64,000 nt of DNA. Source: Candidatus Daviesbacteria bacterium RIFCSPLOWO2_01_FULL_39_23. GTDB taxonomy: Bacteria > Patescibacteriota > Microgenomatia > Daviesbacterales > UBA10151. Where the stretch lies: the NCBI GenBank assembly GCA_001776935.1, contig MFDN01000005.1, positions 2,505-66,504 on the forward strand. The letters are read 5' to 3'. A program made the position numbers and the translations under genes. Positions 47,098-58,094 of the stretch are shown here, in pieces; the first letter of the stretch is position 1, and each line of letters opens with the position of its first letter. The notes under the pieces are model-generated. The model ran no database searches, was not told the origin of the DNA, and saw only the letters and a program-made list of their open reading frames with translations.

Positions 47098-47738
47098 TTT
47101 TGAGCCCTTTCCGAATAAACCATTCTTTCAACTTCATTCAAAGCCGAAGAGCTGGCTTCTTTTGATAAAAATGTACATGCAGAAAGCTTTGATATATTAA
47201 GCTCATTAGCAACAAGAGGATGCATCTGGCTAATTTTATCAATAAATTTACCTTCCCACTCTGACAATCTGCTTATCGCAAGCCTGATAGACATACGCGC
47301 ATTTGGATTTGAAATTTGATCATAAACTGTTTGCAAAGTGCTCATCTGCAAGACAATTTCACCAGCGGCCTTCCCTGCAAAACCGCTATCTAAGGGACTC
47401 AGTAAATTGGCAATTTCCTGTAAATGCCAACTGTATCTTTCCAAGGTGGGCAGAATTAAATCCGCGCGGGATACAGAAACTAAGCTCTTCACTTCTCTTA
47501 TCCTTCGGGTTGAAAACTCTATCTGTCTTAGAGCCTTTATGTTTGTGGTACCGGCAAACTTAAGTTCCAAATTTTCCCGGATTGATTTCAAAAAGTACAA
47601 AGGCGAAGCCGGATGAATCCTAGCCTGCCCAATGGCATCAGCTTGGGCATAGGCAGGAAAAATGTAAAATGTAAAATGTAAAATGTAAAATGTAAAAAGC
47701 AGAAGAATCAATCTAATTGTAAATTGTACATTGTACAT
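47076..47738 (-). CDS. Hypothetical secreted protein
   Basis: Predicted signal peptide (MYNVQFTIRLILLLFTFYILHFTFYIFPAYAQA) partly encoded by the aatgtaa heptamer repeat. The track ORF extends further from a GTG. Confidence 0.3.
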   Translation of the reverse strand: MYNVQFTIRLILLLFTFYILHFTFYIFPAYAQADAIGQARIHPASPLYFLKSIRENLELKFAGTTNIKALRQIEFSTRRIREVKSLVSVSRADLILPTLERYSWHLQEIANLLSPLDSGFAGKAAGEIVLQMSTLQTVYDQISNPNARMSIRLAISRLSEWEGKFIDKISQMHPLVANELNISKLSACTFLSKEASSSALNEVERMVYSERAQKCQTVKQ

Positions 47739-47775
47739 TGTAAATTTCCTTACCGTCTTATTATATAATACTCCA

Positions 47776-50109
47776 ATGACACCCTGGGATTTAGAAAAAA
47801 ACGGACAAAAAACAGAGTTTGATCCGCCTTTTCCTTCTGCTTTTGCTTTGCTTGCACATTTTGCCAAAACAACAGGCGGAAAAGAGGCGGTAATATTTGA
47901 TGATTTTGATAACGGAAATACTATTTCCCTCACCTATCTATCCCTTCTGAACTTAGTAAAACAAACTGCCGATTTTTTGACAAAACAATTAGGTGTTGAA
48001 AAAACATTTGCCTACGCTTTTACCAATAGGCCGGAAATAATAGTTTTGAATTTGGCAGCGATGATTGCCGGCAAAATCTTTGTTCCTTTAGATGTGAAGA
48101 GAGATAGTCTTGAGCAAAAAGCCTACAAACTTAAACTGGCGAACGCAAAACTGTTAATATTACCCTCCGCCGGTCAGGAAGAAGCGCAAAAACTTCAGAA
48201 CCTTCTGCCTAAGCTGCAGGTGGTTGAAATAGAAAATTTTGCTGATTTTCAGAAAAAGATCGAAACCTTTCCCGCAGGCGCCCTGCACAATCCCAAACTT
48301 GAAGAGGACTGCTTAATCCTGTTTACTTCCGGCACCACCAGCCTGCCAAAGGGAGTCAGGCTTACTGCTAAAAGCCTGCTTGCAAACGCTGATTCAATTG
48401 CCAAGTGGCTTGAGTTTAACGAAAATGACCGCTTTAACATATTATTGCCGCTTCATCACATTAATTCCACCACATTTTCCTTAACCACCCTGCTTTGCGG
48501 CGCCACCATTGTTCTTTCTCCCCGCTACTCCAAATCCAATTTTTGGAAAACCTTGGCAAATTACTTCTGCACCGGAGCCTCAATCGTTCCCACAATTGCC
48601 TATGATTTATTATCCGAAACAGAAAATTTCCAAATACACAAAAACAAATTAAAAGAGGTCCGCAGGTTTCAAATAGGATCTGCGCCTGTTAATCCGTCAA
48701 TCGCTAAAAAGTTTATTGATCAATACGGAATCCCCCTGATACAGGGTTATGGTCAAACTGAAACATCGCTTCGTTCTGCCGGCGTCCCAATGGATTTACC
48801 AAAAGATGAGTACCGGAAAATAATTGACCTTAATAGTGTTGGCACAGAACTGAAATGGACTAATGTCACAATATTAAAAGAAGACGGCACCGAATGCGCG
48901 GAAGAAGAAAACGGAGAAATATGCGTTCGCGGCCCGGTTATTACCCCCGGGTATTTAGATAATCCAAACGAGAACAAAAAAGCCTTTGCCTATAACTGGT
49001 TTCATTCAGGCGACCGCGGATATTTTAAAATGCTTTTTGGCAAAAAATACTTCTTTCTAACAGGCAGAATGGCGGAAATTATCAAAAAAGGAGGAGTCTT
49101 AATTTCTCCAACCGCCATAGAAAATACTCTTTTAAAAAACTATCCTGATCTTAAACAAGTTTTTGTTGTAGGCTTTCCTGATCCCAGGTTCGGAGAAGAA
49201 GTTGGATTTGTGTCAATATCTTCAGAAAGCATGGTGGGAAAAGTTTTGGAAGATGCAAAAATGGGAAAAATTAAAGGCCTTTCTGCATACGAAACACCAA
49301 AAGCCGGTCTCGCAATATCTGAAAATGATCTTCCTAAAACCTCAACCGGCAAAATTATACGGACAAAAATTAAGGAAATTTTTGGGCAAAAGCTTTGGGA
49401 AAACTCCCACACCGTTTTCTCCGCCGCAGATTTTGACTTTAAAATAATATCTCCTGAGGAAACTGAATTATTAAAACAGGCAACCCAAATAAACAACCTT
49501 GCCTGGGGCAAAAACATGGAAAGCAGTCTGGATGAATTTACATCCCGTGCAGGAAACGGGATTTTAATTGGAGCAGTTGATCATGGAGGCAAACTGCAAG
49601 GCTCAATCAGCGCCTTAAAAACTACCAAAGAAGAGCTTGAAAAATATCCGAGTTATCAAGAAACAACCGGAAATGGTACTTTAAAAACCCACAACCGCAA
49701 AGGGGATATCTTAATCTGCGTAGCCATTTCCACTCCCCCTGCAAAAACCCATGAAGCAAATAGCATCGTCAGGGAAAAATTAACACCGGAAGGATTCGAA
49801 AATTATATTAACTCCTTAAAAGATTATGTTATCCGTTTTCACTCAAAACCTAAAGGAGGATTTGAAAAAGGAGCAGAGGTTATTAAAATCTTGCCTGACT
49901 TCCGTCCCCAGGATCAGGATGCTTTAGGGTTCAATGTCTTAATGAAATACCCAACCTTAAGCCAAAAGCCGGCGATCAACCCGGATGCATCCACAGGCAC
50001 TCAGCTCATTGAAGCAGCATTATTGTATGCATATTATCAGAAAATTAAAGACGTTTATGTGCTGACCCGCCCTGCCCAGGCTTCAGAGTATTTTGAAAAG
50101 TCAACTTAA
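47776..50109 (+). CDS. ANL-superfamily adenylate-forming enzyme (acyl-CoA synthetase-like) fused to a C-terminal domain of unknown function
   Basis: LFTSGTTSLPKGV AMP-binding motif, GYGQTE, and GDRGYF. A 240-aa C-terminal extension is possibly GNAT-like. The ATG at 47776 is preferred over the track TTG at 47731. Confidence 0.7.
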   Translation: MTPWDLEKNGQKTEFDPPFPSAFALLAHFAKTTGGKEAVIFDDFDNGNTISLTYLSLLNLVKQTADFLTKQLGVEKTFAYAFTNRPEIIVLNLAAMIAGKIFVPLDVKRDSLEQKAYKLKLANAKLLILPSAGQEEAQKLQNLLPKLQVVEIENFADFQKKIETFPAGALHNPKLEEDCLILFTSGTTSLPKGVRLTAKSLLANADSIAKWLEFNENDRFNILLPLHHINSTTFSLTTLLCGATIVLSPRYSKSNFWKTLANYFCTGASIVPTIAYDLLSETENFQIHKNKLKEVRRFQIGSAPVNPSIAKKFIDQYGIPLIQGYGQTETSLRSAGVPMDLPKDEYRKIIDLNSVGTELKWTNVTILKEDGTECAEEENGEICVRGPVITPGYLDNPNENKKAFAYNWFHSGDRGYFKMLFGKKYFFLTGRMAEIIKKGGVLISPTAIENTLLKNYPDLKQVFVVGFPDPRFGEEVGFVSISSESMVGKVLEDAKMGKIKGLSAYETPKAGLAISENDLPKTSTGKIIRTKIKEIFGQKLWENSHTVFSAADFDFKIISPEETELLKQATQINNLAWGKNMESSLDEFTSRAGNGILIGAVDHGGKLQGSISALKTTKEELEKYPSYQETTGNGTLKTHNRKGDILICVAISTPPAKTHEANSIVREKLTPEGFENYINSLKDYVIRFHSKPKGGFEKGAEVIKILPDFRPQDQDALGFNVLMKYPTLSQKPAINPDASTGTQLIEAALLYAYYQKIKDVYVLTRPAQASEYFEKST

Positions 50110-50489
50110 GATCCAAAAACTTTAGCCAACTTTATATCAAAAGTTTTAAAATCTTGCGCCCCTTTTGCCCTGGCAATAGTCAAATTATAACAGTCTTCTA
50201 AACTTAAGTTTATCTGTTTAAACAGATGGACACTTTCCGCTAAAAATTGATGTTGGTCAAATACAATATTTAAACCCAGTATCATCTCTAATTTCTCAAC
50301 CAGCGCCTGTTTATCTTTTTTATATGTTGAACGCAATACCCAGAAAATCTCAAAAAACACAACTGTTGAGCTGAAAAGCTTTGTTTCTCCTCTTACGGCC
50401 TGTAGAAAAAGTTTTTTTGCGTCTTGATATTGATTTTCCACATCTTTGAGAAGAAAGCGTAGAAAGTAGTTAGTATCGACAAAAATCAT
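50106..50489 (-). CDS. vapC: PIN-domain toxin VapC
   Basis: MIFVDTNYFLRFL N-terminus with conserved acidic residues. 127 aa. Overlaps vapB by 4 nt. Confidence 0.75.
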   Translation of the reverse strand: MIFVDTNYFLRFLLKDVENQYQDAKKLFLQAVRGETKLFSSTVVFFEIFWVLRSTYKKDKQALVEKLEMILGLNIVFDQHQFLAESVHLFKQINLSLEDCYNLTIARAKGAQDFKTFDIKLAKVFGS

Positions 50490-50746
50490 TTCAAATTATA
50501 CTTTTTTGAAAAATATTCGTCTTTGACCTGCTCAATAATAGTGTCTATGCTTTTGCCTTTCCATTCTTTGGGGCGAGGCACAGATCCTGCCAGCTCCATA
50601 ACCAGTTTTTCGGCAGGGGTAAGTATCAATCGGCCATTATCTTCTGAAACTATGACTTTTTGACCAATCTTAAGTCCTGCCTTGCGGAAAATCTCCGCCG
50701 GCAGAGTGAGTTGTTTTTTGCTGGTAATGGTAGCCATTTGTGTCAT
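50486..50746 (-). CDS. vapB: AbrB/MazE/SpoVT-type antitoxin VapB
   Basis: 86 aa with swapped-hairpin-like N-terminus (KQLTLPAEIFRKAGLKIGQKVIV). Confidence 0.65.
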   Translation of the reverse strand: MTQMATITSKKQLTLPAEIFRKAGLKIGQKVIVSEDNGRLILTPAEKLVMELAGSVPRPKEWKGKSIDTIIEQVKDEYFSKKYNLK

Positions 50747-50799: not shown

Positions 50800-53700
50800 T
50801 TAACTTCTCTTTTTCCCTACAATGCTTTCGAATTCATCCCCTTCCAAAGTCTCTTTCTCAAGTAATGCTTTGGCAACTTTGTCAAGCTTTACTTTATTTT
50901 TCTTTAAAAGATCTTGCGCTTCTTTATAACAGGCATCCATTATCTTTTTTATTTCCGCATCCACCGCATCATGCAGCTTTGGCGACAGACCTTCTCCTTC
51001 TTCCATCCCCCGCCAAACTCCAAACATGGGGCGGGGATTTATACTTAAAGGCCCAAGCGAAGACATGCCGTATTGGGTCACCATCGCCCTGGCAATATTG
51101 GTGGCAACTTCAATATCAGAAGCTGCGCCTGTTGAAATATCACGGAAGACCAATTCTTCCGCTGCTTGTCCGCCCAAAGCCGCAGTTATTTGTTCTAAAA
51201 GACGGGACTTGCTTTCATTTGACCTGTCTTCTGTCGGAGGAAATAAAGTATGCCCCCCGGACATACCTCTTGAGACAATTGAAATTCTGTGTACCGGATC
51301 TACCTTTTTCAGGAAATGTCCCACAATTGCATGACCTGCTTCATGATAAGCCGCCAGCTTCCTGTCATGTTCTGATTGCATTCTTTTCCTTTGCGGCCCT
51401 AATTTTTCTTTGGTGGCTGCTTCCTCCAAATCCTTGCTGTCTATGGCAGTTTTACCCTCTCTGGCAGCCAGAATGGCTGCTTCATTTAACATATTTGCCA
51501 AATCCGCTCCGGAAAACCCAACCGTACGCCGGGCCAGCTTTTCGATTGACACATCTTTGACAAAAGGCTTGCCTTTCATATGAAGTTCAATGATGGCTTT
51601 TCTTTCTTCCAAATCAGGAAGGGACAAAACCACCCGTCTGTCAAAACGTCCCGGCCGAACCAGGGCCGCATCCAAAAGATCAGGCCTGTTAGTCGCTGCC
51701 AGCACGATGACATGATCAGTCTGTGTAAAACCATCCATCTCCACTAAAATTTGATTTAAGGTTTGCTCTCTTTCATCATGACCTCCGGAAATTCCCATTC
51801 CCCGTTGCCTGCCGATTGATTCAATCTCATCTACAAAAATTATGGCCGGGGCTGCTTTTTTTGCCTGGGCAAACATATCCCGCACTCTTGCTGCACCCAC
51901 ACCCACCAGCATTTCCATAAATTCCGAACCGGCTATAGAGAAAAACGGCACTCCTGCTTCTCCTGCCACTGCGCGGGAAAGTAAAGTATTGTGATTAATA
52001 AAACCATTTCCCAAAAAACTATGTGTTTCAGGCACAGTGAAATCATATACATTAGCCTGACCCTCGGTTTTCTTAACTACTCTGGAGAAAAAAAGATTAG
52101 CTTCCAATAAGCTACGCAAATATTCCAAATGCGGAATTTCCACTTCAAGCAAACCGACATACTTCAAATACTCTTTTAGAGTTTCTCTGGTAACCCTACC
52201 TCTTCTTTTTACCTTATCAATAGTTTTTGATAATTTCTCATTACTTAATTTTTTTAAAGAAATAACCTTCCAAGATTCTACTACTATGCTGGCTATCAGA
52301 GGAATCACATCAATGTTTGTATTGACTCTGCCCATTCGTTTTGTATGAGCTTTAAGCAATCTTTGTTTTCTACTAAGACGGAAACCAACTATGTTGCTAA
52401 AGTTAACTAAAGATGAACCAGTCATAGTCAATCTATATACTGGACGATAATATCCATTTTCGGTTGTTCCTTTTACATTAAGACTTGCCACAACCCCTAA
52501 ATTTAAAAGCATCATTTGTACTTGTGTTACGATCTTTTTGCTAACTGTAGTATATTCGAACTCTGCCCGAGCCTTACCAACAGAAGCATCCGTATCAAAA
52601 AGTCCCTGCAGAAACGCTATTTGCACATTTCCCGGAGCTTGTAGAATAGTTGGGGGAATTGTTTTGTCGTATGATAATAAATACGACATACCCAATTGGT
52701 ACAATTGCTTCTTAAAATCCCAATTCGAGACAAGGAAAGACTGACCGTTAGCGCTGGTAGATATCATTCCTTTTGGATAATGAGTTGCAAGATACTTCTT
52801 ATAAAAGTCAATAGTTTCCGGCTCAACATTGGTAAGCCCCACTCTGGAAGCGTGGCTTAAATTACCATCACCCGTGAGAAGACCCATGAGGTATGCTGTT
52901 TCCTCATCTACTAAATCTAGGTCGCCAAAGATTCTTCTTCCGAACTGAATTGCTACATAATCCCCTTCTTGTAAGTGCTCAATCTTGCGGAAACGCAATT
53001 TACCAGTACTATCCATTACTACTACCGGATGTTCCGGTGTTCCTTCCAGAGAAAATCCCTGTGCCAGGCTAACCTTAATAGTTTTCTGCTCTCCTAAATT
53101 GAACCAATGGGAAGCAAAATTCTTGTTGGAAATTACGTCATCTGTACTAAACCCCGGCAACTGTGCCCCATAGACCTGATGAGATTTTGGATCAACATAG
53201 TAGTAACGCGGCACCTCCCGGATTTCCATTAATCCTTTATTAGTCCAAATGATAGTATCCCCGGTCACGCATTTCCCTGTTCCGGCAGGGCCAACCATCA
53301 GCACCCCTTTGGGAATCCTTGCCCCCAATGCCTTAAATTTTTCAGGGGTTTTGAGAAATTCCACAACTTCGGAAAGCTCTCTTTTTGCCTCTTCTGCCCC
53401 TGCCACATCTGTAAATTTGATTTGCGGCTGATCCTTGGTAAAAAGCCTTGCCCGGGATTGAGCAAAAGAAAATATTCCCTGCCCTGCGTCTCTGGCATTC
53501 TTAAACAGAAAAAACATTAGTCCAACCAGAAGCAGTATAGGCAAAACTGCTGACAGGATACCCACCCAAGCCTGCTGTATAGACAAATCTCTCACTTCAA
53601 TAGTAACTGTTTTAGGGTCTACGCCGGATGATTCCAGTATTTTATAGATGGACTCTCCTGCTTCTTTATGAGAAGTGAGCTTTTGGTCGGAATTTTTGAT

Positions 53701-53928
53701 CTCGGCAGTAACTTTATCGCCTTCCAAAGAAATTTTTTGGATTTTTCCATCTTTTACGTCATTTACAATTTGTGAAATAGGCACATCATTTGCAGAAGTC
53801 TGAGGTCCGCCGGAAACCTGATAGAAAAAAATCAACGCTGCTAAAGCAATTAGAATATAGACAAGTAAACCCTTAAACAAACCAAAGAATTTTTTATTTA
53901 TATTAACTTTTCTTTTACCATTTGCCAT
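50800..53928 (-). CDS. ftsH: ATP-dependent zinc metalloprotease FtsH, interrupted by an intein
   Basis: TM region and Walker A split as GPAGTGK | intein | TLLSRAVAGEAGVPFF. Walker B IIFVDEIE, SRH region and HEAGHA zinc motif are present. The extein totals about 614 aa. Confidence 0.9.
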   Translation of the reverse strand: MANGKRKVNINKKFFGLFKGLLVYILIALAALIFFYQVSGGPQTSANDVPISQIVNDVKDGKIQKISLEGDKVTAEIKNSDQKLTSHKEAGESIYKILESSGVDPKTVTIEVRDLSIQQAWVGILSAVLPILLLVGLMFFLFKNARDAGQGIFSFAQSRARLFTKDQPQIKFTDVAGAEEAKRELSEVVEFLKTPEKFKALGARIPKGVLMVGPAGTGKCVTGDTIIWTNKGLMEIREVPRYYYVDPKSHQVYGAQLPGFSTDDVISNKNFASHWFNLGEQKTIKVSLAQGFSLEGTPEHPVVVMDSTGKLRFRKIEHLQEGDYVAIQFGRRIFGDLDLVDEETAYLMGLLTGDGNLSHASRVGLTNVEPETIDFYKKYLATHYPKGMISTSANGQSFLVSNWDFKKQLYQLGMSYLLSYDKTIPPTILQAPGNVQIAFLQGLFDTDASVGKARAEFEYTTVSKKIVTQVQMMLLNLGVVASLNVKGTTENGYYRPVYRLTMTGSSLVNFSNIVGFRLSRKQRLLKAHTKRMGRVNTNIDVIPLIASIVVESWKVISLKKLSNEKLSKTIDKVKRRGRVTRETLKEYLKYVGLLEVEIPHLEYLRSLLEANLFFSRVVKKTEGQANVYDFTVPETHSFLGNGFINHNTLLSRAVAGEAGVPFFSIAGSEFMEMLVGVGAARVRDMFAQAKKAAPAIIFVDEIESIGRQRGMGISGGHDEREQTLNQILVEMDGFTQTDHVIVLAATNRPDLLDAALVRPGRFDRRVVLSLPDLEERKAIIELHMKGKPFVKDVSIEKLARRTVGFSGADLANMLNEAAILAAREGKTAIDSKDLEEAATKEKLGPQRKRMQSEHDRKLAAYHEAGHAIVGHFLKKVDPVHRISIVSRGMSGGHTLFPPTEDRSNESKSRLLEQITAALGGQAAEELVFRDISTGAASDIEVATNIARAMVTQYGMSSLGPLSINPRPMFGVWRGMEEGEGLSPKLHDAVDAEIKKIMDACYKEAQDLLKKNKVKLDKVAKALLEKETLEGDEFESIVGKKRS
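51988..53271 (-). mobile_element. Intein with LAGLIDADG homing endonuclease (in ftsH P-loop)
   Basis: 428 aa. N-terminal Cys (CVTGDTIIW), C-terminal ...GFINHN followed by a +1 Thr. Two LAGLIDADG-like motifs (YLMGLLTGDGN and AFLQGLFDTDASV). Confidence 0.8.
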
Positions 53929-53996: not shown

Positions 53997-54347
53997 TTAA
54001 CGGATTTTTGATCCCGGAGGAACTTTTACTGAAGGTTTTAAAGGAATCGGTTTTCCTTGCCCTGAGCCTGTCGAAGGGTTACCATCGGCACACATAATCA
54101 TGCCATTTGATTCCAGGCCCATCATTACTCTTGGCTCTAAATTTGTCACAAAAACAAACTGTTTGCCAACTAATTTTTCAGGCTTGTACCATTCTTTTAT
54201 ACCCGAAAGAATTTGTCTTGGTTTTTCTTCTCCCAGATCTACCAGCAGTTTCAGTAATTTATCAGCTCCCAGAACTTCCTCTGCATTAAGCACAGTACCT
54301 ATTTTTATTTCAATCTTCGCAAAATCATCTATATATATCATAGTCAC
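53997..54347 (-). CDS. tRNA-binding domain protein (CsaA/Trbp111-like)
   Basis: 116 aa. OB-fold tRNA-binding motif IKIGTVLNAEEV...KLLKLLVDLGEE. Confidence 0.7.
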   Translation of the reverse strand: MTMIYIDDFAKIEIKIGTVLNAEEVLGADKLLKLLVDLGEEKPRQILSGIKEWYKPEKLVGKQFVFVTNLEPRVMMGLESNGMIMCADGNPSTGSGQGKPIPLKPSVKVPPGSKIR

Positions 54348-55519: not shown

Positions 55520-55780
55520 TTAATAAGTGGTAGTTCTTCGAAAATCAATGTCCTCCACTGAGACTTGATGTGAATTTGTATCTAATTGGTAGATGACTCT
55601 GATTTCACTTATCCTTAATCTGTAGCTTCTTTGAGTGCCTGCTAATTTTTTAATATCCAAACCGGCTTGAAACGGATCGCTTTCTAATTTTCTTAAGCCT
55701 TTTAAAACCCTTTCCTGTAACTTTTGTGGTAATTTCGCAAAATGTTTCTCTGCCCTGGGGCGGATGATTAAATTGTACAT
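55520..55780 (-). CDS. RelE/ParE family toxin
   Basis: 86 aa. C-terminal YRLRISEIRVIYQLD pattern. Confidence 0.65.
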   Translation of the reverse strand: MYNLIIRPRAEKHFAKLPQKLQERVLKGLRKLESDPFQAGLDIKKLAGTQRSYRLRISEIRVIYQLDTNSHQVSVEDIDFRRTTTY

Positions 55781-56056
55781 TTAGACGCTGAGGCGATATT
55801 TTTTCGCCAATTGCTCCAAGGCTATTCCACCTTTTTGGGGATTTTCTTCCAATTCTTTACCTTTTAAGCTGTCAAAATAATCTTCCAGCATTTCCATCAT
55901 ATTGGAATATTCTTCAATAGAAAGCATCACGGCTTTAGGCTTGCTGTGATGAAAAATGAAAGTGGGGCCGGATTTTTTTGTATCCTCCAAAAGCTCTATT
56001 GCTTTTTCCCTAAGGTCTGTAATGGTTTTGGTATTTTTAGCAGTCGGTATGATCAT
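55781..56056 (-). CDS. Phd/YefM family antitoxin
   Basis: 91 aa. N-terminal ITDLREKAIELLEDTKKSGPTFIFHHSKPKAVMLSIEEY. Directly abuts the toxin gene. Confidence 0.7.
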   Translation of the reverse strand: MIIPTAKNTKTITDLREKAIELLEDTKKSGPTFIFHHSKPKAVMLSIEEYSNMMEMLEDYFDSLKGKELEENPQKGGIALEQLAKKYRLSV

Positions 56057-56552: not shown

Positions 56553-58094
56553 TCAGATTCCTAATCCATACATGAAAATAGGATTATTCTCTATTGCTAA
56601 ACTCTCTTCTTGAGTTGATTCATCATCTTTATAAGGAGAAGGAAATATTCTTTTTTCTAAACCTAATAAAAGAGCATGCTTATAAGAACTGGCTTTCACG
56701 GATTCTGCAATATTAATACCAAAAGTTTCCGCATCCCAAAACCCGTCTGCTACAGCTACTACTTGCTCAAGTTTATAAAAAGCATGCCCTCTCCCGTCAT
56801 GTCTACCCAAAACCGGATCAAATTTGCCTACTTCGTACTCTGTAGAGATATAATCTGCCAGTGTCAGTGCCCGCATCTCAATAGGCCTTTTTAAGCCTTT
56901 AATAGATATTTTCCTGCCCCTTTGAGGAAACCTGTCAGGCTTACCGTTGCCATTAGTCGGATCAACTTGATCATCTGGTTCAACCTTGTAGCGCTCGCTC
57001 CGCTCGCGCATAACCCGGTCAAACTCGGCAGTAACTTCATCCCTTAAACGTTTTCCTTCTTCCGGATCATTACCTGTATACATAACGACCAGCCTAAAAC
57101 GGTCTTTATCTTCACCGTAAGGCGTAGTTTCTATACGGCTGTCAGGGTGAAATCCGTTTGCTTTTCTTGATCTTTGCATTCCTTTTATAACTCTGGCTCC
57201 GAATTCTTTCCTATCTTGATCATATAAAACTTTTACTGTCTCTACCACGTTCCCTTCCTTGTCTTTAATTCCTACCACTCTTACCGGATATTCAATGTAT
57301 TTTACCCATAATCCTTCTGCAAAGTCTGTATCCAGGTATTGACTACTTAAACCAACCAATTCATTTGTTCTTGGTTTATGATAGGAATATATCGGCATAT
57401 CTATAGGATCGCCTTCTTTCCCTATAAAGAAATTCTTTTCCAAATAGTCATTCATGTCCTCAAGGGCTCCGGTAACCGCCTCGTCGTTATCTACATCTTC
57501 TTTCATCTCGTCTGCACACAATAATCCGACTGCCAATCTTCTGTATTGCTCTGATCTTAATCTGTTACCTATTTTATTCGCCGGTTTAGTTAATCTTTCT
57601 AATATCGAAGAGGGCGTTCTTCTATCCCAATAAGAGTTACCCGTTAATGCCGCTTTTCTATCCTGATCTGCAAAAAGTATTCCGCGTGCAACCCCCACTG
57701 TCTCATCGGCCATCAGCATAACCTGTTTCCAGAATCTTCTTCTCCCCCGCTCTTCGATTCCGTATTCATTTCCCACCTTCTCGTAAATTTCCTGATTTAC
57801 CCGCCTTTTTGCCTCCCGACGTGTTTCTCCTCTTTCGTGACCATCTTTATCAATATACACGAACTCCCCGGTTTTATTTGCCCTTCTAAATTCTTCGTAA
57901 TTCTCCCAGCCAAAAAAATCTCTAATCTCTCCCACCACACCTCTTATACCCATTCCCTTGGCTGTCATTTTGGCAAAATTTACCTCCCATTTTCGTCTTT
58001 CAGGCACTATTTCTCCACCCAATGTTTCACTAGGAAACGGCGCAATGTCTGCTATTGATACTTCTGATATCTCTGATGCTTCAATGTTAATCAT
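56553..58094 (-). CDS. Hypothetical protein (513 aa, highly charged)
   Basis: Long ORF without recognisable motifs. Preceded by a structured leader and terminator. Confidence 0.5.
   Translation of the reverse strand: MINIEASEISEVSIADIAPFPSETLGGEIVPERRKWEVNFAKMTAKGMGIRGVVGEIRDFFGWENYEEFRRANKTGEFVYIDKDGHERGETRREAKRRVNQEIYEKVGNEYGIEERGRRRFWKQVMLMADETVGVARGILFADQDRKAALTGNSYWDRRTPSSILERLTKPANKIGNRLRSEQYRRLAVGLLCADEMKEDVDNDEAVTGALEDMNDYLEKNFFIGKEGDPIDMPIYSYHKPRTNELVGLSSQYLDTDFAEGLWVKYIEYPVRVVGIKDKEGNVVETVKVLYDQDRKEFGARVIKGMQRSRKANGFHPDSRIETTPYGEDKDRFRLVVMYTGNDPEEGKRLRDEVTAEFDRVMRERSERYKVEPDDQVDPTNGNGKPDRFPQRGRKISIKGLKRPIEMRALTLADYISTEYEVGKFDPVLGRHDGRGHAFYKLEQVVAVADGFWDAETFGINIAESVKASSYKHALLLGLEKRIFPSPYKDDESTQEESLAIENNPIFMYGLGI

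What the first reader, a model, noticed from the sequence alone, without database searches (positions are those of the whole stretch)
51988..53271. Full-length LAGLIDADG intein splitting the FtsH Walker A motif
FtsH reads GPAGTGK-[428-aa insert]-TLLSRA. The insert begins with Cys, ends with His-Asn before a Thr, and holds two LAGLIDADG-like motifs. These are all hallmarks of a class 1 intein with homing endonuclease. P-loop insertion sites are classic intein hotspots, but FtsH is an uncommon host.
Basis: partly seen in the sequence, partly recalled or inferred. Interest (0 to 1): 0.6.

Follow-up and report, generated by a model that had tools for sequence, protein, structure and literature searches.

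The report
Self-splicing intein inside FtsH protease gene
The ftsH gene of this groundwater Candidatus Daviesbacteria bacterium is interrupted, exactly inside its ATP-binding loop, by a complete self-splicing protein element (an intein) with its own homing endonuclease; it is a real but ordinary example of a well-known kind, and only its host gene has not been catalogued.

Summary
ftsH (window 50800-53928, minus strand, 1042 aa) carries an in-frame 428-aa insert (51988-53271) between the Lys and Thr of Walker A: GPAGTGK|C...HN|TLLSRA.

- The insert passes the curated Pfam and NCBIfam intein and LAGLIDADG thresholds.
- It has all canonical splicing blocks (C1, T78-x-x-H81, D410, H417, H427-N428, Thr+1) and both endonuclease Asp residues (D135, D228).
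- It gives a confident model (pLDDT 91). The best structural matches are solved endonuclease-bearing inteins, first the P-loop TliVMA intein.
- Removing it restores an FtsH 90% identical to intein-free orthologues at the syntenic locus.
- Of the 120 closest orthologues, 114 have this site empty and 6 have it occupied.

The claim that FtsH is an "uncommon host" needs nuance. I found no paper describing an FtsH intein. However, the same insertion occurs in 52 species-representative genomes, mostly Patescibacteria, plus Acidobacteriota and one Chloroflexia MAG. It belongs to a large group of inteins that target GK|T/S in many P-loop NTPases.

Verdict: a new member of a known kind, of low to moderate interest. 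Splicing and endonuclease activity are inferred, not shown.

The parts
50800..53928 (-). Full ftsH precursor gene (1042 aa plus stop), made of N-extein, intein and C-extein in one reading frame.
   Evidence: ORF list. TIGR01241 FtsH_fam scores 707.6 bits in two stretches. Pfam finds FtsH_ext, AAA, AAA_lid_3 and Peptidase_M41.
53272..53928 (-). N-extein, FtsH aa 1-219. It holds the transmembrane/extracellular region and the start of the AAA+ module, and ends in GPAGTGK (Walker A without its Thr).
   Evidence: It is identical in sequence across the junction to the intein-free orthologue L001.
51988..53271 (-). Intein, 428 aa, with the order HINT N-lobe, LAGLIDADG endonuclease, accessory domain, HINT C-lobe.
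   Evidence: Pfam and NCBIfam hits above cut-off. AlphaFold model has pLDDT 91.4 and pTM 0.91. Foldseek finds 7qss at E 2.4e-26 (TM 0.74) and 1dq3 at E 8e-26.
52918..53271 (-). HINT N-terminal splicing lobe, intein aa 1-118. It contains block A (C1 VTGDTIIWTNKG), block B (aa 72-85, T78 and H81) and block N4.
   Evidence: NCBIfam intein_Nterm covers aa 1-85. C1, T78 and H81 are invariant in 10 FtsH P-loop inteins. The model is all-beta here.
52375..52917 (-). LAGLIDADG homing-endonuclease domain, intein aa 119-299. It contains block C (aa 126-138, D135), block D (aa 201-210, K203), block E (aa 218-231, D228) and block H (aa 244-264).
   Evidence: Pfam LAGLIDADG_3 covers aa 216-296. D135, K203 and D228 are invariant in 10 homologues. 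I-DmoI structures match this part. dN/dS is 0.04-0.09.
52096..52374 (-). Helical accessory domain between the endonuclease and the HINT C-lobe, intein aa 300-392. It probably contacts DNA.
   Evidence: Predicted helices at 300-312, 327-339, 345-357, 362-374 and 382-390. This region aligns to the TliVMA intein 7qss, including the TNIDVIP/TNIDIVP stretch. The HINT-endonuclease-accessory architecture is described in PMC8966425. A role in DNA binding is inferred.
51988..52095 (-). HINT C-terminal splicing lobe, intein aa 393-428. It contains block F (VYDFTVPETHSFLG; D410, H417) and block G (NGFINHN; H427, N428).
   Evidence: NCBIfam intein_Cterm covers aa 408-428. D410, H417, H427 and N428 are invariant.
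50800..51987 (-). C-extein, FtsH aa 648-1042 plus stop. It begins with Thr+1, which is both the Walker A Thr and the splice nucleophile. It then carries Walker B, sensor 1, the Arg-finger region and the HEAGH zinc site.
   Evidence: motif positions in the spliced protein: Walker A 213, Walker B 268, AATNRPD 316, RPGRFDR 330, HEAGHA 434. Pfam finds AAA and Peptidase_M41.

Best explanation
The insert is a canonical class 1 intein with a nested two-motif LAGLIDADG homing endonuclease. It lies in the single open reading frame of the ftsH gene of a Candidatus Daviesbacteria (Patescibacteria) bacterium, between the Lys and Thr of the Walker A P-loop.

Proposed mechanism, which is inferred from sequence and the established class 1 pathway and was not shown here:
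1. The 1042-aa precursor is translated with its ATP-binding loop split, so it should be ATPase-inactive.
2. Cys1 performs an N-S acyl shift, helped by block B T78/H81.
3. Thr+1, the Walker A Thr, attacks the thioester to form the branched intermediate.
4. Asn428 cyclises, helped by H427, H417 and D410, and releases the intein.
5. An O-N shift restores the peptide bond and gives a normal 614-aa FtsH with GPAGTGKT.

The free intein (or the precursor) is predicted to be a site-specific DNA endonuclease using D135 and D228. It would cut intein-free ftsH alleles at the Walker A codons and be copied in by recombinational repair (homing). This explains its patchy presence among close relatives. It belongs to a large group of inteins that sit at GK|T/S of many different P-loop NTPases.
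For: Shown by sequence and tools:
- Exact in-frame 428-aa insert, GPAGTGK|C...HN|T.
- Curated intein and LAGLIDADG models are passed.
- Sequence matches to solved inteins 7qss, 1dq3, Pho RadA and Mxe GyrA.
- The model has pLDDT 91.4, and its best Foldseek hits are endonuclease-bearing inteins: 7qss (TliVMA, itself a P-loop intein, per PMC8966425) at E 2.4e-26 and TM 0.74, then PI-PfuI, PI-TkoII and PI-SceI. I-DmoI matches the endonuclease part.
- All catalytic residues (C1, T78, H81, D135, K203, D228, D410, H417, H427, N428) are invariant across 10 FtsH P-loop inteins that are only 36-78% identical overall.

Host gene evidence:
- The spliced extein is 90% identical to intein-free Daviesbacteria FtsH (P0024, P0026).
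- The orthologous locus L001 shares the order NTP-transferase, TrpRS, FtsH, PolA. Its site is empty, with an identical amino-acid sequence and 79/90 identical bases across the junction.
- All FtsH motifs are intact.

Distribution and selection:
- Of the 120 closest orthologues, 114 have this site empty and 6 have it occupied. Four of the 114 carry a different intein at site b, leaving 110 with no intein. The 6 occupied alleles include two intein lineages only 39% identical to each other.
- Intein and extein identities do not rank the same way: WIN-P0030 is 91% in the extein and 69% in the intein, while WIN-P0107 is 83.5% and 77.6%.
- dN/dS is well below 1 in the endonuclease domain (0.04-0.09).
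- 52 GTDB species representatives carry an intein at the same FtsH site.
- In an exhaustive search, 59 of the 70 relatives with a readable N-junction sit at a GK| Walker A site. Of the 65 with a readable C-junction, the +1 residue is Thr in 52, Ser in 12 and Cys in 1.
Against: - Nothing here demonstrates splicing or DNA cleavage; both are inferred from conserved residues and predicted fold.
- Synonymous sites in the extein flanks show no co-conversion tract between intein-bearing alleles. dS between the closest inteins is saturated at 1.8-2.7. So there is no sign of recent homing among the sampled genomes, and the dN/dS values are rough.
- The accessory domain evolves faster (dN/dS about 0.2).
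- I could not check whether this genome has a second, uninterrupted ftsH copy.
Confidence: 0.9

Rival explanations
1. The intein still splices, but its endonuclease no longer homes. The element is an old, vertically inherited resident of this lineage, kept only because imprecise loss would destroy an essential Walker A motif.
For: There is no co-conversion signal in the flanks. Synonymous divergence between the nearest inteins is saturated, so the insertions are old. No close relative was found in viral contigs that could act as a vector; the best was 29% identical or less. PMC8966425 documents a P-loop VMA intein whose endonuclease has degenerated while the fold is kept.
Against: Both catalytic Asp residues and the block D Lys are invariant across homologues 36-78% identical. 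dN/dS in the endonuclease domain is 0.04-0.09, as low as in the splicing lobe. All same-site inteins seen are full length at 425-436 aa, with no mini-inteins. The site is empty in 114 of the 120 closest orthologues, and two intein lineages occupy the same site, which argues for repeated gain or loss.
Confidence: 0.25
2. The intein has been co-opted as a conditional splicing switch. FtsH activity would be released only when conditions such as redox state at Cys1, metals or temperature allow splicing, giving post-translational control of the essential membrane protease.
For: This is only circumstantial. The insertion is in the catalytic P-loop, so the precursor must be inactive. The element is retained under purifying selection across many Patescibacteria. 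FtsH in related genomes accumulates up to three inteins, all in AAA+ catalytic motifs. Conditional splicing is documented for other P-loop inteins such as RadA (PMC4513877) and DnaB (PMC6195587), listed.
Against: No feature specific to regulation was found. 114 of the 120 closest orthologues do without an intein at this site, so it is not needed for FtsH function. Selfish persistence explains every observation.
Confidence: 0.1
3. The insert is not a working intein. It could be an assembly chimera, a non-splicing insertion that has turned ftsH into a pseudogene, or an intron-type element with a free-standing LAGLIDADG ORF.
For: Public records of the same organism split the gene: P0002 is called from an internal Met and P0001 is truncated. 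Two of the 52 related loci look damaged: L038 has an internal stop and L041 has a broken C-junction.
Against: The identical 1042-aa ORF was read on 24 contigs. The frame is continuous through both junctions. The exteins are 90% identical to functional orthologues with every motif intact. The HINT blocks flank the endonuclease in the same frame, which an intron ORF would not show.
Confidence: 0.02

Closest known systems
TliVMA intein (Thermococcus litoralis V-ATPase A subunit, VMA-b site; PDB 7qss) and PI-PfuI (PDB 1dq3)
   Same: These are the best sequence and structure matches. The architecture is the same: HINT, then a two-motif LAGLIDADG endonuclease, then an accessory domain, then HINT. 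TliVMA is also inserted in a P-loop (PMC8966425).
   Different: Only about 20% identical. The known examples are archaeal with V-ATPase or RNR hosts; this one is bacterial (Patescibacteria) with FtsH as host. The activities of the window intein are untested.
P-loop (Walker A GK|T/S) inteins of bacterial and archaeal NTPases: DnaB site b, MCM site a, RFC-S site a, PhoH, LonB, UvrD, terminases (Novikova et al. 2016, PMC4760082)
   Same: The insertion point within Walker A is the same, and the Walker A Thr/Ser serves as the +1 nucleophile. The nearest non-FtsH relatives found here sit at the same motif in PhoH (GPAGTGK|C..HN|T), MutS, UvrD-like, terminase-like and other AAA+ proteins.
   Different: FtsH is not mentioned in the main text of that survey. 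Identity to the PhoH and MutS inteins is only 28-35%.
FtsH P-loop inteins in other public genomes (unnamed; for example P0107/L004, P0069/L018, P0030, P0003)
   Same: Same host gene, same site and same length (425-436 aa). They are 36-78% identical with all catalytic residues conserved.
   Different: None of them is described in the literature I could search. Their records call them FtsH or AAA family ATPase without naming the intein.
PI-SceI (yeast VMA1 intein)
   Same: It is a class 1 intein with a LAGLIDADG endonuclease, and it is the paradigm for splicing plus homing. It is a Foldseek hit at E 6e-13.
   Different: Its accessory DNA-recognition region is inserted in the HINT domain rather than between the endonuclease and HINT (PMC8966425). 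TM-score is only 0.47. The insertion site also differs (VMA-a, not the P-loop).

Membership tests
Class 1 intein (HINT splicing domain) | A nucleophilic Cys or Ser as the first intein residue. | tested here: met
   Cys1 follows GPAGTGK. It is invariant in 10 FtsH P-loop inteins.
Class 1 intein (HINT splicing domain) | Block B TxxH motif. | tested here: met
   T78-P-E-H81 in GFSLEGTPEHPVVV. T78 and H81 are invariant in 21 sequences and in 10 sequences.
Class 1 intein (HINT splicing domain) | Block F Asp and His, and block G penultimate His plus terminal Asn. | tested here: met
   VYD410FTVPETH417SF and NGFINH427N428. NCBIfam intein_Cterm scores 27.9 bits against a cut-off of 15.6. These residues are invariant.
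Class 1 intein (HINT splicing domain) | Cys, Ser or Thr as the first residue of the C-extein. | tested here: met
   Thr+1, the Walker A Thr. Among related inteins with a readable C-junction, +1 is Thr in 52, Ser in 12 and Cys in 1.
Class 1 intein (HINT splicing domain) | In-frame insertion in a conserved host protein, whose removal restores the uninterrupted host sequence; intein-free alleles exist. | tested here: met
   Excision gives GPAGTGKTLLSRA, identical to the syntenic intein-free orthologue L001. 114 of the 120 closest orthologues have this site empty.
Class 1 intein (HINT splicing domain) | HINT fold. | tested here: met
   This rests on a predicted structure only: pLDDT 91.4, matching solved inteins 7qss, 1dq3, 2cw7 and PI-SceI, and mini-inteins for the HINT part.
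Class 1 intein (HINT splicing domain) | Actual protein splicing, giving ligated exteins plus free intein. | not testable with these tools
   This needs expression of the precursor or metaproteomics.
LAGLIDADG homing endonuclease (two-motif, intein-nested) | Two LAGLIDADG helices, each ending in a catalytic acidic residue. | tested here: met
   LMGLLTGD135G and LQGLFDTD228A. Pfam LAGLIDADG_3 scores 70.6 bits. Both Asp residues are invariant among FtsH P-loop inteins. The alignment of D228 to the PI-SceI catalytic Asp is from my own knowledge of that motif.
LAGLIDADG homing endonuclease (two-motif, intein-nested) | Site-specific cleavage of the intein-free allele, and homing. | not testable with these tools
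   The evidence is indirect only: patchy distribution, two lineages in one site, and dN/dS of 0.04-0.09. No co-conversion tract was detected.
FtsH (ATP-dependent zinc metalloprotease, TIGR01241) | Full-length match to the equivalog model, with the AAA+ module and the M41 HEXXH protease. | tested here: met
   TIGR01241 scores 707.6 bits against a cut-off of 600, in two stretches around the insert. Walker A and B, sensor 1, RPGRFDR and HEAGHA are present in the spliced sequence.
Class 3 intein / bacterial intein-like (BIL) domain (considered and rejected) | Class 3: no nucleophile at position 1 and a block F Cys in a WCT motif. BIL: no +1 nucleophile requirement, located in variable regions of non-conserved proteins. 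| tested here: not met
   Cys1 is present, and block F reads VYDFTVPETH without a WCT motif. His-Asn plus Thr+1 are present, and the insertion is in the most conserved motif of an essential protein. The class definitions are from my own knowledge.

The most novel reading that the evidence does not exclude
FtsH of Patescibacteria and some Acidobacteriota may be an uncatalogued intein hot-spot. It has at least four insertion sites, all in catalytic motifs of the AAA+ module: Walker A, next to the pore loop, just before Walker B, and sensor 1. Up to three inteins occur in one gene. In these reduced-genome bacteria, the P-loop intein might act as a conditional splicing switch that gates the essential membrane protease, rather than as a purely selfish element.
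Probability: 0.1. Interest if true: 0.6.

Novelty: new member of a known kind. Interest (0 to 1): 0.25.

Why it matters
For annotation, the gene should be called as one 1042-aa precursor with a 428-aa intein. A public record of the same organism starts the CDS at a Met inside the intein (P0002).

For intein biology, it adds FtsH to the list of P-loop NTPases invaded at GK|T. FtsH is the essential membrane AAA+ protease, which is not a replication or repair protein. The allele is widespread in Patescibacteria, a group not covered by the main intein surveys I could read. This gives a natural series for studying the homing cycle and site switching: empty sites, full-length inteins, two lineages at one site, mini-inteins at a second site, and multi-intein genes.

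The practical value is modest. It offers a new Cys1/Thr+1 splicing domain and a probable rare-cutting LAGLIDADG enzyme. None of this changes current understanding of inteins.

Tried and rejected
- Co-conversion test. I compared synonymous codon identity in the 100 codons on each side of the site between the window and five intein-bearing loci and one intein-free locus. There was no local excess near the junction, so there is no evidence of recent homing.
- dN/dS. The values are well below 1, but dS is saturated at 1.8-2.7 overall, and for the 36-codon HINT C-lobe the estimate failed. I use them only qualitatively.
- Viral vector. A scan of IMG/VR contigs with the FtsH-intein alignment gave only relatives of 29% identity or less, none in ftsH.
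- Other inteins in the window. A profile built from 10 FtsH inteins, searched against all six-frame ORFs of 60 aa or more, hit only ftsH. Pfam on ten neighbouring or large ORFs showed no HINT or LAGLIDADG domains.
- Literature. Five full-text searches were run (FtsH + intein; inteins + candidate phyla radiation; intein + Daviesbacteria; intein + Patescibacteria and related names; P-loop intein terms). They found no description of an FtsH intein. Of the FtsH + intein hits, I opened three and the terms were unrelated in each; the other titles look unrelated. The supplementary tables of PMC4760082 are not held, so they could not be checked.
- Rejected readings: group I intron ORF, BIL domain, class 3 intein, and assembly chimera (see rival explanations and the membership test).
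Full report
**1. The observation**

The region lies in one uninterrupted ORF on the minus strand, window 50800..53928, encoding 1042 aa. The translated protein reads ...GVLMVGPAGTGK|CVTGDTII...GNGFINHN|TLLSRAVAGEAG... The stretch between the bars is 428 aa and maps to window 51988..53271, exactly the coordinates given. Removing it leaves a 614-aa protein with an intact Walker A, GPAGTGKT.

G+C content is 38.6% in the insert, 44.3% in the exteins and 40.0% in the window. This is unremarkable.

**2. What the insert is**

Curated profile models identify both halves of the story.
- The flanks together hit the FtsH equivalog TIGR01241 at 707.6 bits (cut-off 600), in two stretches. They also hit Pfam FtsH_ext, AAA, AAA_lid_3 and Peptidase_M41.
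- The insert hits Pfam Intein_splicing (53.7 bits, cut-off 35.8) and LAGLIDADG_3 (70.6 bits, cut-off 22.5).
- It also hits NCBIfam intein_Nterm (38.0 bits, cut-off 24.5) and intein_Cterm (27.9 bits, cut-off 15.6).
- Weaker matches cover the intein parts of NCBI's intein-containing GyrA, DnaB, IF-2, RFC, RNR, RecA and V-ATPase models.
- By sequence alone it matches solved inteins: TliVMA 7qss at E 3.9e-9, PI-PfuI 1dq3 at E 1.2e-6, then Pho RadA and Mxe GyrA.

All canonical blocks can be placed on the insert:

| Block | Intein aa | Key residues or sequence |
|---|---|---|
| A | 1-13 | C1 |
| B | 72-85 | T78, H81 |
| N4 | 92-108 | |
| C | 126-138 | LMGLLTGD135G |
| D | 201-210 | K203 |
| E | 218-231 | LQGLFDTD228A |
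| H | 244-264 | |
| F | 408-421 | D410, H417 |
| G | 422-428 | H427, N428 |

An AlphaFold model built on a 21-sequence alignment is confident, with mean pLDDT 91.4 and pTM 0.91. Its best Foldseek matches in the PDB are full-length endonuclease-bearing inteins:
- TliVMA 7qss, E 2.4e-26, TM 0.74.
- PI-PfuI 1dq3, E 8e-26.
- PhoVMA, PI-TkoII and PI-SceI.
- I-DmoI for the endonuclease core and mini-inteins for the HINT part.

TliVMA is itself a P-loop intein with a HINT, endonuclease and accessory-domain layout (PMC8966425). Residues 300-392 of the window intein form five predicted helices and align to that accessory region.

**3. Host gene, organism and the empty site**

The nearest database proteins are from Candidatus Daviesbacteria (Patescibacteria/CPR) from aquifer metagenomes. 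The exact 1042-aa protein was read on 24 contigs and is indexed in 45 blocks of the collection. One example is a 96-kb Rifle scaffold. It is therefore not an assembly accident.

A search with the spliced 614-aa extein returned 120 closest FtsH orthologues at 78-90% identity.
- 114 have the P-loop site empty.
- 6 have an intein there (P0030, P0069, P0100, P0107, P0141, P0143).
- 4 of the 114 carry a different intein at a second site, so 110 of the 120 have no intein at all.

The syntenic locus of an intein-free relative is L001, on a 375-kb groundwater contig. It shares the gene order NTP-transferase, TrpRS, FtsH, PolA with the window. Across the junction it reads IPKGVLMVGPAGTGK|TLLSRAVAGEAGVPF, identical in protein and 79/90 identical in DNA.

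The window extein keeps Walker A and B, sensor 1, the RPGRFDR arginine region and the HEAGHA zinc site. The host gene is therefore maintained, which requires that the insert be removed from the protein.

**4. Distribution and relatives**

Ten FtsH P-loop inteins that are 36-78% identical to the window's keep C1, T78, H81, D135, K203, D228, D410, H417, H427 and N428 invariant.

A scan of one genome per GTDB species found 52 loci (L004-L055) in which an FtsH gene carries a homologous intein of 425-436 aa at GxxGxGK|C...HN|T[LM].
- Many are Microgenomates: Davies-, Gottesman-, Ames-, Levyi-, Pace-, Blackburn-, Woese- and Beckwithbacteria.
- Many are Parcubacteria: Nealson-, Campbell-, Nomura-, Kuenen-, Lipton-, Vogel-, Ryan-, Kaiser- and Taylorbacteria.
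- Some MAGs are labelled Saccharibacteria.
- Six are Acidobacteriota (Blastocatellia/Pyrinomonadaceae).
- One Chloroflexia copy is damaged.

This count is a lower bound, because the scan relied on two peptide patterns.

Within Daviesbacteria, two intein lineages only about 39% identical occupy the same site in FtsH proteins that are about 80% identical. Intein and extein identities also do not rank alike: WIN-P0030 is 91% extein and 69% intein, whereas WIN-P0107 is 83.5% and 77.6%. This pattern fits repeated gain and loss rather than a single ancient insertion.

An exhaustive HMMER search of 1.84 billion cluster representatives found 8353 relatives at E ≤ 0.001 and 372 at E ≤ 1e-30. Among the best 150, the N-junction could be read in 70.
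- 59 of those 70 sit directly after the GK of a Walker A motif in very different P-loop NTPases. These include UvrD-like (AGSGK|TRVLTHR), terminase-like, MutS, PhoH, RecA-like and other AAA+ proteins.
- 8 of the 70 are FtsH-like.
- Among the 65 with a readable C-junction, the +1 residue is Thr in 52, Ser in 12 and Cys in 1.

The window element is thus one branch of a large population of P-loop-targeting inteins. That P-loops are intein hot-spots is established (PMC4760082).

**5. Is the endonuclease alive?**

Evidence for activity:
- Both LAGLIDADG Asp residues and the block D Lys are conserved.
- All same-site inteins seen are full length.
- dN/dS between the window intein and its two closest species-level relatives is 0.04-0.09 in the endonuclease domain. 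That is comparable with the HINT N-lobe (0.03-0.04) and lower than the accessory domain (about 0.2).

Evidence against recent activity:
- dS is saturated at 1.8-2.7.
- Synonymous sites in the extein flanks show no co-conversion tract.
- No close relative occurs in viral contigs.

My reading is that the endonuclease is probably functional, at roughly 60-70%, but no recent homing event is visible in the sampled genomes.

**6. Mechanism**

The mechanism is inferred from the established class 1 pathway.
1. Translation gives a P-loop-split, inactive precursor.
2. Cys1 performs an N-S acyl shift, assisted by T78 and H81.
3. Thr+1 carries out trans-esterification.
4. Asn428 cyclises, assisted by H427, H417 and D410.
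5. An O-N shift yields native FtsH.

Because Thr+1 is the Mg-coordinating Walker A Thr and the -1 residue is the Walker A Lys, the host cannot mutate the splice junction or delete the element imprecisely without losing an essential enzyme. This is the classical explanation for persistence at such sites, and I give it from general knowledge. At the DNA level, the endonuclease would cleave empty Walker A sites and be copied in by repair.

**7. Comparison with what is known, and novelty**

As a kind of element, this is textbook. It is a class 1 intein with a LAGLIDADG endonuclease in the P-loop of an AAA+ ATPase. The closest described cases are TliVMA, PI-PfuI and the P-loop inteins of MCM, RFC, DnaB, PhoH and LonB.

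As a host, FtsH does not appear in the main text of the Novikova et al. survey. Five full-text searches found no paper that describes an FtsH intein. I opened three of the co-mention papers and the terms were unrelated in each. The database records are labelled only FtsH or AAA family ATPase. One record for this same organism starts the CDS at a Met inside the intein (P0002).

I therefore rate it a new member of a known kind. A specialist would not be surprised. Interest is 0.25.

**8. Things seen on the way**

Related FtsH genes carry further inteins at three other AAA+ motifs:
- Site b, GVGA|SRVRD, next to the pore loop.
- Site c, KKNAP|CIIFIDEID, just before Walker B.
- Site d, VVAA|TNRPD, at sensor 1.

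Up to three inteins occur in one gene, as in L027. The site d intein is 46-49% identical to site b inteins. Site b also has mini-inteins of 183 and 195 aa.

The window's own site b is empty and has Ala rather than Ser at the would-be +1 position, as do 97 of 113 empty orthologues. Whether this reflects immunity to the site b intein is speculation.

Noticed in passing
Related proteins P0108, P0118 (full-length, 449 aa) and P0112, P0114 (mini, 183 and 195 aa); loci L027, L033, L049: A second, unrelated intein (Ser1/Ser+1) sits at FtsH site b, GVGA|S...HN|SRVRD, next to the pore loop. It occurs in close Daviesbacteria relatives and in Acidobacteriota, in both full-length and mini forms.
   Followed up: partly
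Window about 53116-53136 (codons for VGVGAAR; FtsH aa 247-253 of the spliced numbering): The window's own site b is empty and reads GVGA|ARVRD, with Ala where a site b intein needs Ser+1. Of 113 empty close orthologues, 97 have Ala and 16 have Ser, while all four site b inteins precede Ser. This might be a site refractory to that intein, but that was not tested.
   Followed up: partly
L027 (Blastocatellia), L033, L036 (Pyrinomonadaceae), L049 (Blackburnbacteria), L046: Some FtsH genes carry several inteins: L027 has a+b+c, L033 and L049 have a+b, L036 has a+c and L046 has a+d. Site c is KKNAP|C...HN|CIIFIDEID, just before Walker B. Site d is VVAA|S...HN|TNRPD, at sensor 1.
   Followed up: partly
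L046 site d versus the site b inteins of P0108, P0118, L049, L027 and L033: The site d intein is 46-49% identical to site b inteins over about 448 aa. One intein lineage therefore appears to occupy two different sites of the same gene, which would be an ectopic site switch.
   Followed up: partly
P0002 (NCBI, Candidatus Daviesbacteria GW2011_GWB1) and P0001: Public records of the same organism fragment this gene. P0002 starts at the Met of MGLLTGDG inside the intein (695 aa, named FtsH). P0001 is a 572-aa truncated N-terminal piece.
   Followed up: no
Window 50106-50746 and 55520-56056: Two toxin-antitoxin pairs flank ftsH. One is PIN plus a MazE/AbrB-type antitoxin. The other is a Phd/YefM antitoxin plus an 86-aa partner that has no Pfam hit and looks RelE-like to me. 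Together with a small tRNA_bind ORF (53997-54347), they are absent from the syntenic intein-free locus L001.
   Followed up: no
L009, L011, L013, L014, L016, L046 (labelled Gammaproteobacteria or Pseudomonadales) and L056 (labelled Klebsiella pneumoniae): MAGs with proteobacterial names carry FtsH exteins close to Patescibacteria FtsH; L014 and L046 score above 960 bits to the Daviesbacteria extein. L056 carries a PhoH P-loop intein. The taxonomic labels of these assemblies are probably wrong.
   Followed up: no
Window about 53131-53142 (MLVG): The pore-loop position reads MLVG in the window and its close relatives. The Acidobacteriota loci and P0005 have MFVG, so the aromatic pore residue is replaced by Leu here.
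   Followed up: no
Window 56553-58094 (minus strand) and the C-terminal half of 47731-50109 (plus strand): A 513-aa ORF has no Pfam family. A 792-aa AMP-binding enzyme has its last roughly 380 aa matching no Pfam model.
   Followed up: no
L057 (Micrarchaeota), L058 and L060 (Micrarchaeota), L059 (Chloroflexia): More distant relatives of the intein (27-32% identical) occur in an archaeal AAA+ protein at the same P-loop position. They also occur in a gene whose flanks look like S-adenosylmethionine synthetase to me (HGGGAF|C...HN|SGKDPSKVDR) and at a GMGK|T P-loop in a gene whose flanks look like DnaB. Neither host was checked against a profile.
   Followed up: no
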